Origin: Octopus vulgaris
Taxonomy: Eukaryota
Assembly (NCBI GenBank): GCA_951406725.2
Contig: OX597820.1
Coordinates: 7,936,001 to 8,000,000, forward strand
Direction of reading: 5' to 3'
Length of the DNA: 64,000 bases
Below, piece after piece: positions 35,788-48,775 of this stretch. The notes beneath the pieces are model-generated. The model saw only the letters and a program-made list of their open reading frames with translations. It was not told the origin of the DNA and did not search any database. Every line of letters starts with the position of its first letter. Within the stretch, counting starts at the first letter, position 1. Both the position numbers and the translations under genes were made by a program.

Positions 35788-36021
35788 ACCGGAGTAAACA
35801 CATAAATGTGAAACAAGGTGGAAAAATGAGTACTCAAATACCAGTGGCAGAGTAATATACTTCATTTAAAGCAGCAGAAAATTCAACAAAACCTGTTACT
35901 CTGAGTTTCCCGTTGCCGTTCATTGGACAGTTTTTGCTAGAAAAAACTGTCTGATGAACGGCAACGAGAAACTCAGAGTAACAGGTTTTGTTGAATTTTC
36001 TGCTGCTTTAAATAAAGTATA
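35788..36021. mobile_element. Palindromic TA-embedded element (~80-bp arms) with head-to-head HHR-like motifs and a one-sided ~70-nt extension
   Basis: 35856-35935 is the reverse complement of 35942-36021. A related copy lies at 58589-58780. Confidence 0.8.
35947..35984 (+). ncRNA. Minimal type I hammerhead-like motif
   Basis: CTGT | CTGATGA | A-CG-GCAA-CG-A | GAAA | C-TCAGA-G | TA | ACAG, with near-palindromic ACTC-A-GAGT. The mirror copy on the minus strand (35893-35930) has core CCAATGA. Confidence 0.7.
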
Positions 36022-36056
36022 TATATATATATATATATATATATATATATATTTAA

Positions 36057-36385
36057 AAAAAGGAGATGTCGAACACGAGTGGTGATATATAAAAAAGGAA
36101 ATGAAGAAAATGCTGACAAATAATTGAAGTAATTTAAGTAATTTAATTAGGTGAAAGTTCTTTTTACCGGTTGCGCATTTGTTATGCTTATCAAAATATA
36201 AAAGAGAGATTAGAGTTCCTTTCTTATAGAATTTTTCCGGAAAAATTCTATAAGAAAGGAACTCTAATCTCTCTTTTATATTTTGATAAGCATAACAAAT
36301 GCGCAACCGGTAAAAAGAACTTTTCACCTAATTAAATTACTTAAATTACTTCAATTATTTGTCAGCATTTTCTTCATTTCCTTTT
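36057..36385. mobile_element. Near-perfect spacerless palindrome (~146-bp arms, centre TTCCGGAA) carrying a variant HHR-like motif on each strand
   Basis: 36093-36238 is the reverse complement of 36239-36385 (one indel). Plus motif 36281-36316: TT | TTGATAA | GCAT-AACAA-ATGC | GCAA | CCGG | TA | AA. Confidence 0.8.
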
Positions 36386-36429
36386 ATTATATATATATAT
36401 ATATATATATATATATATATATATATATA

Positions 36430-36660
36430 TAGGGAGAATTCACAGAAAAACAAAAAACGAAGACAGATGGTAGAGACAACAGACAGATGTATTAGTTTAA
36501 CGCTCGGGAAGTGAAAAAGTCTTTAACGTTTCAAGCTTACGCTCTTCCACAGAAAAGAACCCAGAAAGAAACAAGGAGAGAAAATATAGAAGAGAATATA
36601 AAGAAGAGTAAATATAGAGAGAAAATAAAGTATATGTAGTAGCTGGTGATCTATATATAT
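36430..36660 (-). mobile_element. Family A TA-embedded element (diverged copy)
   Basis: Aligns with 37028-37222. HHR-like motif on the minus strand: CTGTGGAA-GAGC-GTAA-GCTT-GAAACGTT. Confidence 0.7.
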
Positions 36661-36845
36661 CATAATCAATAGATTTGTGGGTAATCCATTGCAAAAAGAA
36701 CATAACGAGTATTTATAATGGAAAGCTCGTGGTATTTATATGCACATCAAGAAATAATACTTGAGGATAAAACCAGTAGAATAGCAGGGTATAAAATATA
36801 CTACCCTAATTAGCCCTTACTTGAGTTGAAATTATAATTAGAAAG

Positions 36846-36899
36846 AAACTACGCGTGTTTCTGTATTGGAAGATCAGACTATAAGTAATCATCAGATTT
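36846..36899 (-). ncRNA. Hammerhead-like motif
   Basis: Minus strand: AAAT | CTGATGA | ..weak stem II.. | GAAA | C-ACGC-G | TA | GTTT. The core is canonical but stem II pairs poorly. Confidence 0.5.
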
Positions 36900-37027
36900 A
36901 TAATTCTACCATTACATCTTTTTCTTTTTCAAAATATTATTCAGCTTTTTTAAATCACCATAAAATATATATATATATATATATATATATATATATATAT
37001 ATATATATATATATATATATATATATA

Positions 37028-37222
37028 TAGGGAGAGTTTACGAAGAAAAAAAGACAAAGACAGGTGGTGTACAAAACAAACAGATATATTAGTATAATGC
37101 TCAGGGATAGAAAAAGTCTTTTACGTTTCGAGCCGACGCTCTTCTACAGAAAGGGACACAGAAAAAAACAAGGAGAGAAAAAAAAAAGTGTGAGTAGTGG
37201 CTAACGATCTATCATGGCGATT
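37028..37222 (-). mobile_element. Family A TA-embedded element
   Basis: Reverse complement of 15815-16010. Confidence 0.8.
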
Positions 37223-46539: not shown

Positions 46540-46623
46540 CACTACAATCGTTTCGGCTTCATTCTGCACTGATGTAAGGACATCAGATGTAACGCACAGT
46601 GAAAAAGAGCCTCATCAGGTGAC
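46540..46623 (-). ncRNA. Mirror hammerhead-like motif in the left arm
   Basis: Same core and stems as 46836-46944, lacking the TCCC/GGGA sub-hairpin. Confidence 0.7.
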
Positions 46624-46835
46624 ATAACATACTTCAAATGTTACTAGATTTACATTTCATTTTCGCCCCAGGTTATATGCAGGTGGTGCGATCCTAGCAG
46701 TTCAGCTACATTTGGTTAAGTAACCACACATTTGGTTACTTAACCAAATGTGCCTGAACAACTAGGATTGCACCACCTGCATATAACCTGGGGCGAAAAT
46801 GAAATGTAAATCTAGTAACATTTGAAGTATGTTAT

Positions 46836-46944
46836 GTCACCTGATGAGGCTCTTTTGCACTGTGCGTTGCATCTGATGTCATTACATCATCCCACGACCA
46901 CTAGGGAGCAGTGCAGAATGAAGCCGAAACGATTGTAGTGCTAT
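46836..46944 (+). ncRNA. Type I hammerhead-like motif with a large branched stem II
   Basis: CAC | CTGATGA | GGC..TGCACTG..[TGATGT/ACATCA][TCCC/GGGA]..CAGTGCA..GCC | GAAA | C-GATT-G | TA | GTG, then ATTAAA. Confidence 0.75.
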
Positions 46945-47198
46945 TAAATCTTTTAGTTACATTCTGTTTTACGCATCAATCTTTTAAAATATACCCTACG
47001 TTCACCTCGGAATTCCGGACGTAGATCCAACGACGAACGCACAGTAACGCAGATGACGCATGGCAGCCGTAAGTGGTGAACGTACTCTGCAGACACATTA
47101 CCTGGGGCTTACTCTGAAGCAAGCTTTGGATACTGCATTTAATGCCTACTTTCTAAACCTTAATTCTGAATTTAAATTTTATGTGTGTGTATATATAT

Positions 47199-47388
47199 AT
47201 GGGAGAGTTTACGAAAAAAACAAAAGACGAAGATGGGTGGTATACAAAACAAACAGATGTATTAGTATAACGCTCAGGAATAGAAAAAGTCTTTTACGTT
47301 TCGGGCCTACGCTCTTCTACAGAAAGGGACAAAAAAAAAAACAAGGAGAAAAAAATGTGTGTGGTGGCTAACGATCTATCATGGCGAC
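47199..47388 (-). mobile_element. Family A TA-embedded element
   Basis: Aligns with 37028-37222. Confidence 0.8.
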
Positions 47389-47844
47389 ATATATATATAT
47401 ATATATACACACAAATTAACCCACACATACATCCCTACACACACACACGCACGTACAAGCACACACGCACACATACACTAGGTTAAGCACAGTTACTCGC
47501 CACACACCCAAACTCTACGCATACACACACGAACACACACATGCACACACACACACTACAAACAACACACACACATGATACATATACTTACACGCACACA
47601 CATATACCCCTTTGTTTTCGACCTTGTTTTGACCTTGCTGGATACAAAAAAGTGCCACTCCTTTATGACAGCTGGCCTGCCATGCCTGTTATTCACATAC
47701 ATTCACATATTCACGCACAAACACACTTGTCATCCTTGCACACACACACACGCACACACGCTCCCACACACATTCCTTGTCTTTGAAACTCTCTTGTTTT
47801 TAAAAATCATGATTCGTCTACCTTTCAACTTCTGTTCTTTCAAC

Positions 47845-48052
47845 ATGTGATCTCTTGAGCACCACCAGCAAAAAATTTTTTTCCTCTGTCTTCCCTTCTC
47901 GGGATCTTTCCTTCTCCTTTGTTTCCGACGAAGAGCTCCGCTCGAAAAGTTAAACCCTCCTTCCCTTCTTTCCTGAGCGTCAAATAATACTTTAATTGTT
48001 CCACGTCCTCGCGTTGCTGTTTTTTTCTGTGTTTTCTTGTTTGGATTAACTT
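47845..48052 (+). mobile_element. Family A-related element (HHR-like motif at 47921-47955 with mutated stem III)
   Basis: Reverse complement of 41867-42078. Confidence 0.75.
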
Positions 48053-48074
48053 TATATATATATATATATATATA

Positions 48075-48775
48075 CGTTTAAATATTTGTTGTGCAAGATT
48101 TTTTATGTGAAGTCGTGTGTTGAAACAGATATTGTTACATTTCGGAATGGTCATTTTGCCAGTTTAGCCAATAAAAACACACGCACTATATATTTGGTCT
48201 TACTTTGCTTCAGTGTTATTTATTTTTTACATTAATCTTAATCTTATTTCGGCCAGAGTTCTTTCGTCACACTCCTGTGACCGCATCAGTGGTCCTTTGT
48301 TTTCTTCTTTCTTATTTGTGTCTCTCCTTACTAACCGTCAGTCATTTTGTATTTCTATTGTATGTCTTCATTTGCGCATGCTTATATCTCTATGTGCGTT
48401 TATTATATGTGCGTTTATTATATATGTTCATTACATGAACATATATAAACAGAAGATACAAATATTACAGGCATCCCCCACATACACACACTAAATAAAC
48501 ATAAACGCACATAGAGATATAAGCATGCGCAAATGAAGACATACAATAGAAATACAAAATGGCTGACGGTTAGTAAGGAGAGACACAAATAAGAAAGAAG
48601 AAAACAAAGAACCACTGATGCGGTCACAGGAGTGTGACGAAAGAACTCTGGCCGAAATAAGATTAAGATTAATGTAAAAAATAAATAACACTGAAGCAAA
48701 GTAAGACCAAATATATAGTGCGTGTGTTTTTATTGGCTAAACTGGCAAAATGACCATTCCGAAATATAACAATAT
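48075..48775. mobile_element. Inverted-repeat element (275-bp arms, 97-bp spacer) between (TA)n tracts, with HHR-like motifs at 48253-48292 (-) and 48612-48651 (+)
   Basis: 48129-48403 is the reverse complement of 48501-48775 with ~3 mismatches. Motif: CCA | CTGATGC-G | GTCAC-AGGAGT-GTGAC | GAAA | G-AA-C | TC | TGG. Confidence 0.8.

What the first reader, a model, noticed from the sequence alone, without database searches (positions are those of the whole stretch)
35788..48775. Four unrelated palindromic elements all have ribozymes pointing outward, usually with a one-sided extension
Seen: 35856-36021, 36093-36385, 46488-46992 and 48129-48775 are inverted duplications. In each, the left HHR is on the minus strand and the right HHR is on the plus strand, so 5' ends join at the centre and 3' ends face outward. 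Three carry 35-70 extra bases beyond one arm (35788-35855, 36057-36092, 48075-48128). The coding PLE remnant at 17745-18739 has the same polarity. Established: PLE insertions often have an inverted 5'-truncated pLTR and a short 3' tail on one pLTR. Inference: these are minimal products of PLE integration with template switching. The extension plus palindrome recurs at 58589, so it may propagate as a unit. A read-through transcript would fold into long dsRNA that masks its own ribozyme.
Basis: partly seen in the sequence, partly recalled or inferred. Interest (0 to 1): 0.75.

Follow-up and report, generated by a model that had tools for sequence, protein, structure and literature searches.

The report
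Head-to-head Penelope stubs end at promoter
These four mirror-image repeats are short insertions from abundant repeat families (three traced to protein-coding Penelope-like jumping genes) in a layout already known; they are likely built anew at each landing rather than copied as a unit, and their inner ends pile up about 30 bases past a TATA-like box, which suggests the element's RNA is copied from both cut DNA ends back to its very start.

Summary
The four palindromes are real, but 'all have outward ribozymes' is overstated. E3 has two canonical hammerhead (HHR) cores, E1 one intact and one mutated, E4 a family-wide A9C variant, E2 none. E1, E2 and E4 are truncated copies of protein-coding Penelope-like elements (PLEs; 4923, 314 and 2092 exact tail matches). 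Outward polarity holds in other families, but follows from known PLE anatomy. Unit propagation is not supported: junctions vary (39/50, 13/15, 36/37 distinct), and 58589 has a different centre. The tail-less arm often reaches further 5' than the tailed arm (E4 22 vs 8), which simple fold-back cannot produce; this favours priming from both target ends. The scan already noted that idea on other DNA. Added here: inner ends stop at a wall 28-31 nt after a TATA-like box in three families, and the wall appears to shift with a natural 48-nt deletion. The stubs are therefore likely run-off copies from tail to transcription start. No RNA evidence confirms that start. Verdict: known architecture with a testable mechanistic clue; interest moderate-low.

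The parts
35789..35855 (-). E1 tail (3' extension, ~68 nt); in full-length parents the ORF begins just downstream of it
   Evidence: L212, L215
35856..35942 (-). E1 tailed arm, 83 nt; inner end at position 29 after the parent's TATA-like TATAGA; HHR core mutated (CCAATGA, 35920-35926)
35937..36022 (+). E1 tail-less arm, joined at the CTAG microhomology; predicted type I HHR 35947-35984 (core 35951, cut after 35980)
36057..36092 (-). E2 tail (~36 nt)
36093..36238 (-). E2 tailed arm; no HHR; inner end ~9 nt inside the family's 5' wall
36239..36385 (+). E2 tail-less arm, blunt head-to-head join
46488..46720 (-). E3 tail-less arm with predicted long-stem-II HHR (core at 46618)
46738..46992 (+). 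E3 tailed arm with predicted long-stem-II HHR (core at 46841)
46993..47182 (+).
48075..48128 (-). E4 tail, 54 nt
48129..48403 (-). E4 tailed arm, 275 nt; HHR-like motif 48253-48292 (A9C core)
48404..48429 (.). E4 26-nt junction insert
48430..48775 (+). E4 tail-less arm, 346 nt (71 nt longer than the tailed arm); HHR-like motif 48612-48651
58590..58774 (-). Older E1 relative with a different centre (tail-less arm longer)
17744..18739 (+). PLE remnant: GIY-YIG fragment 18017-18500, direct arm 18495-18739, inverted arm 17744-17974; no HHR core found

Best explanation
Each palindrome is a short head-to-head insertion from a repeat family with a one-sided tail (three of four traced to protein-coding Penelope-like elements), likely made anew at each insertion when both cut ends of a TA-repeat target prime reverse transcription. 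One end would start at the far site (giving the tailed arm) and the other at the near site (giving the tail-less arm). Each cDNA would run toward the RNA's 5' end, and the two would be joined by 0-6 nt microhomology or a short insert. When priming happens in the first pLTR of a transcript, the cDNA would run off at the transcription start about 30 nt after the TATA box, which yields the commonest stubs and recurrent centres. Ribozymes point outward because they lie on the sense strand of the pLTR; cleavage is probably not required. Shown: family membership, variable junctions, fixed outer ends, arm asymmetry, the 5' wall, polarity. Inferred: two-ended priming, wall = transcription start, same-RNA templating.
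For: Parents: E1 727-aa ORF right after the tail (L212, L215); E2 746-765 aa with RVT_1 E 3e-7 and GIY-YIG E 2e-4; E4 825 aa. Outer end of the inverted arm exactly at the tail boundary in 52 of 56 (E1), 15 of 17 (E2), 11 of 13 (E4). Distinct junctions 39 of 50, 13 of 15, 36 of 37. Tail-less arm at least 10 nt longer: E4 22 vs 8 the other way (7 even; p=0.016), E1 9 vs 8 (33 even), E2 2 vs 1 (12 even); L287 has a 3.5-kb tail-less arm against a 0.5-kb tailed arm. Double-tailed loci exist (L128, L233, L296, L321). 5' wall, counted from the T of the TATA-like box: E4 0 of 127 ends at 0-28 and 16 at 29-37; E1 47 of 142 at 26-32 and 2 at 1-25; E2 intact type 36 of 51 at 28-33 with 1 passing; short E2 arms 18 of 34 at 29-32 on the scale of the 48-nt deletion variant. 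Arms share subfamily SNPs in 52 of 53, 45 of 48 and 38 of 39 copies against ~0.5 expected. In vitro, an Anolis PLE extends both strands from two internal sites that bound the tail, with no need for HHR cleavage (PMC11167929).
Against: No RNA run on record and no raw reads, so the start site is inferred from sequence alone. Central deletions after insertion could create arm asymmetry, and E1's 9:8 split does not exclude this. The E2 wall shift assumes the short copies came from the deletion master; no SNP separates the two masters, and the new wall also sits at an ATAT palindrome. No ORF parent was found for E3. Pfam found nothing for the E1 ORF and only a sub-threshold RVT_1 hit for E4. The window's own E4 arms reach past the TATA box, so that copy is not a run-off stub. 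D. virilis Penelope has a TATA-less promoter (PMC2377424 passages). SNP concordance cannot tell one RNA from one active master.
Confidence: 0.7

Rival explanations
1. The tail-plus-palindrome unit is a non-autonomous element that is transcribed whole and re-inserted.
For: About 450 loci (extrapolated from 66 loci in the first 100 of 676 strand hits) share the E1 centre; a 5-unit tandem array exists at C22; the similarity-ranked top 40 E1 hits are all full units.
Against: That is about 9% of 4923 tail matches. The same centre occurs in the A, G and T subfamilies with both arms matching. The only recurrent arm-specific differences are at CpG sites; the commonest (8 of 45) comes wholly from the similarity-ranked set, 0 of 15 in the position-ordered set. 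Mirror forms of the centre both occur. E2 and E4 junctions are nearly all unique, and 58589 differs.
Confidence: 0.08
2. One cDNA, or an antisense RNA, folds back and self-primes to make the inverted arm (Arkhipova et al. 2013).
For: Centres often sit at short palindromic words (CTAG, ATAT); arms are SNP-concordant; proposed in PMC3846280 (passages).
Against: A sense fold-back cannot give a tail-less arm longer than the tailed one (33 of 102 single-tailed palindromes across three families) and gives no reason for the exact stop at the tail boundary. An antisense RNA has no evident reason to end at the sense TATA+30 position.
Confidence: 0.15
3. The 5' wall is set by RNA processing (HHR cleavage or a 3' splice site) rather than by transcription start.
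For: E4 has 5 ends at 132-138, just after the predicted HHR cut, and 0 at 111-131 (Poisson p~0.04 and 0.003). An AG lies at the wall in E1, E2 and E4.
Against: The main walls lie upstream of the HHR. E1 shows no pile-up at its cut site (2 of 142). E2 has a wall but no HHR. Ends include the AG, and the E2 deletion variant's wall has no AG.
Confidence: 0.1
4. Assembly artefact or DNA-transposon MITEs.
For: Long-read fold-backs and MITEs both give palindromes.
Against: One-sided tails, 5'-variable lengths up to 3.5 kb and RT-coding long copies. Contigs from public runs show the E1 tail-less end joined to (TA)n (55 contigs) and the CTAG inversion joint (5 contigs in X15).
Confidence: 0.02

Closest known systems
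Inverted 5'-truncated pLTR insertions with a one-sided tail in EN+ PLEs (Adineta Pen2a, PMC3846280 passages; PMC8557442 passages and Fig. 2 legend)
   Same: Head-to-head arms, tail on one end, junction palindromes, microhomology, microsatellite targets, TATA and Inr in the pLTR (Pen2a).
   Different: Here the stubs number in the thousands, tails run 36-190 nt (30-40 reported), and inner ends pile up at a TATA-fixed position.
PAc (Anolis Poseidon) in vitro mechanism (PMC11167929, main text parts 1-2 of 4)
   Same: Two fixed RT start sites bounding the tail, both strands extended, AT-rich target, HHR cleavage dispensable.
   Different: In the parts read, the paper does not derive the inverted arm from two-ended priming or map 5' ends to the start site.
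PLE minimal HHRs (PMC4209133, parts 1-2 of 4)
   Same: Type I motifs with a short or palindromic stem III and an extra nucleotide after position 9; the paper already notes pairs 100-700 bp apart on opposite strands.
   Different: E4 has A9C, about 30% of sampled E1 cores are CCGAYGA (19 of 67 parsed), and E2 has none.
Animal non-LTR retrozymes (bioRxiv 10.64898/2026.07.22.740005, part 1 of 5)
   Same: HHR-bearing non-coding PLE derivatives.
   Different: Retrozymes are defined by head-to-tail tandem units with an HHR in each; these are head-to-head, one-off stubs of coding elements.
Minus-strand strong-stop DNA of LTR elements (recalled)
   Same: Works like it: internal priming near the RNA's 5' end gives a short run-off cDNA.
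   Different: Primed by target DNA rather than tRNA, and integrated directly.

Membership tests
EN+ Penelope-like element (truncated copy) | [quoted passage not shown] | tested here: met
   E2 parent: RVT_1 and GIY-YIG. E4: RVT_1 E 0.003, GIY-YIG-like motif by eye. E1: RT and EN motifs by eye only, no Pfam hit.
EN+ Penelope-like element (truncated copy) | Same test for E3 | tested here: inconclusive
   Old family (76-84% identity); no ORF in three 8-kb upstream fetches.
EN+ Penelope-like element (truncated copy) | Fixed 3' end, variable 5' truncation, inverted 5' copy, one-sided tail | tested here: met
EN+ Penelope-like element (truncated copy) | AT-rich or microsatellite target | tested here: met
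   Tail followed by a TA repeat in 84 of 90, 32 of 32 and 60 of 74 (not deduplicated).
EN+ Penelope-like element (truncated copy) | HHR on the sense strand of the pLTR | tested here: inconclusive
   Met for E1 and E3, variant for E4, absent in E2.
EN+ Penelope-like element (truncated copy) | Clade (Poseidon, Neptune, Nematis) by RT tree | not tested
   No tree was built.
Non-LTR retrozyme | Head-to-tail tandem units each with an intact type I HHR | tested here: not met
   Copies are head-to-head or single; one E1 tandem array of palindromes (L126) has a CCAATGA or CCGATGA core in each arm.
Self-propagating non-autonomous unit | Fixed internal junction inherited with arm-specific mutations | tested here: not met
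MITE (DNA transposon) | TIRs defining both ends, uniform length | tested here: not met
   One-sided tails, monomers and RT-coding long copies.
Active hammerhead ribozyme | Self-cleavage at the predicted site | not testable with these tools
   No raw RNA reads; no Rfam hit.

The most novel reading that the evidence does not exclude
Thousands of these stubs are integrated 'strong-stop' cDNAs. A PLE dimer primes from both ends of a double-strand cut at two fixed sites on one RNA and copies to its cap. The stubs would then map each family's promoter at near-base resolution, as the E2 deletion variant suggests, and would replace antisense self-priming as the origin of inverted pLTRs. A minority of E4 copies may record in vivo cleavage by an A9C hammerhead.
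Probability: 0.5. Interest if true: 0.62.

Novelty: new member of a known kind. Interest (0 to 1): 0.4.

Why it matters
How PLEs produce inverted pLTRs and one-sided tails is described as unresolved (PMC3846280, PMC8557442 passages). These young, abundant families give in-genome statistics that separate the models and make sharp predictions: capped RNA ends at three named positions, and arms of independent length. The palindromes themselves look like by-products, not regulatory devices. For annotation, they should be filed as PLE fragments, not as MITEs or miRNA hairpins.

Tried and rejected
Rfam scans gave only microsatellite or hairpin miRNA noise and no hammerhead (one search showed 150 of 351 rows). 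The idea that E2's 5' end is an HHR cut was rejected: a pattern with GAAA upstream gave 1 unrelated hit, and the upstream parent shows CCAAT and TATA-like boxes instead. Similarity-ranked hits made the E1 centre look fixed; this was selection bias, corrected with position-ordered samples. Junction calling failed to anchor some arms (length 0), and one search dropped 16 rows through over-strict de-duplication; replace them for arm lengths. One search misses a few inverted arms with mutated ends and cuts long arms at microsatellites. Sequencing-run search: no RNA holder listed, contigs only, so it is no evidence on expression. Independent reads over the window's own E3 and E4 were not obtained. 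Small-RNA and A-to-I tests could not be run. TSDs cannot be read inside (TA)n. Literature searches for twin priming, strong-stop, template switching and octopus PLE hammerheads listed no paper that, by title or abstract start, makes the two-ended or start-site claim; the library lacks most subscription papers, and I read no supplements.

Full report
Observation. Self-BLAST confirms four inverted duplications (E1-E4) at the stated coordinates. All four have a one-sided extension; E3's is ~190 nt on the right and was missed. The ribozyme claim holds only in part. E3 has two canonical cores. E1 has one intact core and one CCAATGA. E4 has CTGATGC (A9C) as a family trait (29 of 30 copies). E2 has none, and the 17745-18739 remnant has none that I could find. 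Rfam recognises none of them; my descriptor gives 143 hits against 5 in reversed sequence over 1.38 Mb.

Identity. The genome is 2.8 Gb in 227 contigs; earlier scan notes call it octopus (unchecked). Exact tail-junction patterns match 4923 (E1), 314 (E2) and 2092 (E4) times, with 0 in the controls. Longer copies lead into single ORFs: 727 aa for E1, starting just after the tail; 746-765 aa for E2, with RVT_1 and GIY-YIG; 825 aa for E4, with a sub-threshold RVT_1 hit. Pfam found nothing for the E1 ORF, whose RT and EN motifs I read by eye. E3 is old (76-84% identity) and no ORF was found. Tails abut TA repeats. Contigs from public runs contain the E1 tail-less end and the inversion joint, so the family-level structure is not an assembly artefact. 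The window's own junctions were not checked against reads.

Polarity. Among 72 non-E1 HHR hits, 20 have an inverted copy upstream (head-to-head, outward), 1 has both and 0 have one downstream only; for E1-like hits the counts are 51, 1 and 1 of 71. Of 99 other palindromes, 8 carry an HHR, all outward. This follows from a sense-strand HHR in the pLTR plus head-to-head joining. Opposite-strand HHR pairs were already noted (PMC4209133).

Fixed or variable breakpoint. I sampled copies in genome order: the first ~90 of 4923 for E1, 30 of 314 for E2 and 90 of 2092 for E4. E1 gave 59 palindromes, 19 long copies and 12 short monomers of 90. Junctions were distinct in 39 of 50 (E1), 13 of 15 (E2) and 36 of 37 (E4). 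The window's E1 centre with its mirror and perfect forms gives 676 strand hits, about 450 loci by extrapolation, or ~9%. It recurs in several SNP subfamilies with both arms matching and no shared non-CpG asymmetry. The 58589 copy has another centre. The palindromes therefore most likely form anew, with microhomology hot spots. One local tandem array of E1 palindromes exists.

Two-ended priming (inferred). The inverted arm ends exactly at the tail boundary in 52 of 56, 15 of 17 and 11 of 13 cases. It reaches at least 10 nt further 5' than the tailed arm in 22 E4 copies (8 the other way, 7 even), 9 E1 copies (8, 33) and 2 E2 copies (1, 12). The window's own E4 (346 vs 275 nt), 58589 and L287 (3.5 vs 0.5 kb) are further examples. 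Such an arm cannot be copied from the tailed cDNA, and the tailed arm cannot be copied from it. The Anolis PLE cuts and extends both strands and starts at two sites that bound the tail (PMC11167929). Arms agree at subfamily SNPs (52 of 53, 45 of 48, 38 of 39), so both come from one RNA or one active master. Caveat: deletions after insertion could mimic asymmetry; E4's skew argues against this, E1's even split does not. I noted this reading before consulting earlier findings, several of which reach it on other DNA; they are not independent evidence.

The 5' wall (inferred start site). Counting from the T of a TATA-like box in each parent: E4 has 0 of 127 ends at 0-28 and 16 at 29-37. E1 has 47 of 142 at 26-32 and 2 at 1-25. 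E2 intact-type arms end at 28-33 in 36 of 51, with one passing; most of this set was similarity-ranked, which selects for reaching ~37 but not against going further. A 48-nt deletion just after the E2 TATA box defines a second master. Short E2 arms pile at 29-32 on its scale (18 of 34), so the wall seems to follow the TATA box rather than the local sequence, though no SNP ties those stubs to that master. CCAAT boxes lie upstream in E1 and E2; the -30 spacing rule is recalled. The simplest reading is run-off cDNA from the tail sites in the first pLTR to the RNA's 5' end, with longer copies coming from read-through or tandem transcripts. HHR cleavage does not set the main wall (E1: 2 of 142 ends at the cut), although E4 shows a weak pile just after its predicted cut (5 at 132-138, 0 at 111-131). 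No RNA data confirm the start site.

Comparison and verdict. The layout is the documented inverted pLTR plus tail (PMC3846280, PMC8557442 passages). These are not retrozymes or MITEs. The published explanation, antisense self-priming, was left open by its authors. My searches listed no paper making the two-ended or start-site claim, within a partial library and without supplements. The dsRNA hairpin is strongly predicted, as for any palindrome, with no shown role. Known architecture, new family members, and one testable addition. Interest 0.4.

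Noticed in passing
window 48794-49191: Element with 119-nt terminal inverted repeats directly after E4's TA flank; no match in the fetched loci; possibly a true MITE.
   Followed up: no
window 49211-50301: 160-nt inverted arms around ~770 nt; common family (57 loci match); not classified.
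   Followed up: partly
window 33480-34050: Direct-repeat unit in (TA)n with an intact type I HHR at 33762(+), retrozyme- or pLTR-like; relatives at L049 form an outward pair.
   Followed up: partly
window 55671-56415: Inverted plus partial-tandem structure typical of an old PLE-type insertion.
   Followed up: no
window 28139-28791 (-): Decayed RT fragment related to the E1 parent (31-38% aa).
   Followed up: no
window 10804(+), 13097(+), 13434(-), 36895(-): Further HHR-like motifs from other families.
   Followed up: no
E4 family, L248-L347: 11 of 127 arm ends pile at TATA positions 210-215 (arm length 44-48 nt, at a U-rich run); the ones inspected are tailed arms; unexplained stop site.
   Followed up: no
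L126 (G000:C22:11377629-11378686): Tandem array of about five E1 palindromes separated by (TA)n.
   Followed up: partly
L038, L045, L047 (E2); L151, L171, L204 (E1): 'Monomers' carrying only ~3-14 nt of the tail-less arm, as if second-end priming aborted early.
   Followed up: partly
window 16048-17705 and 31735-33401: Two 69%-identical copies with RT-like ORFs in opposite orientation, probably LINE remnants.
   Followed up: no
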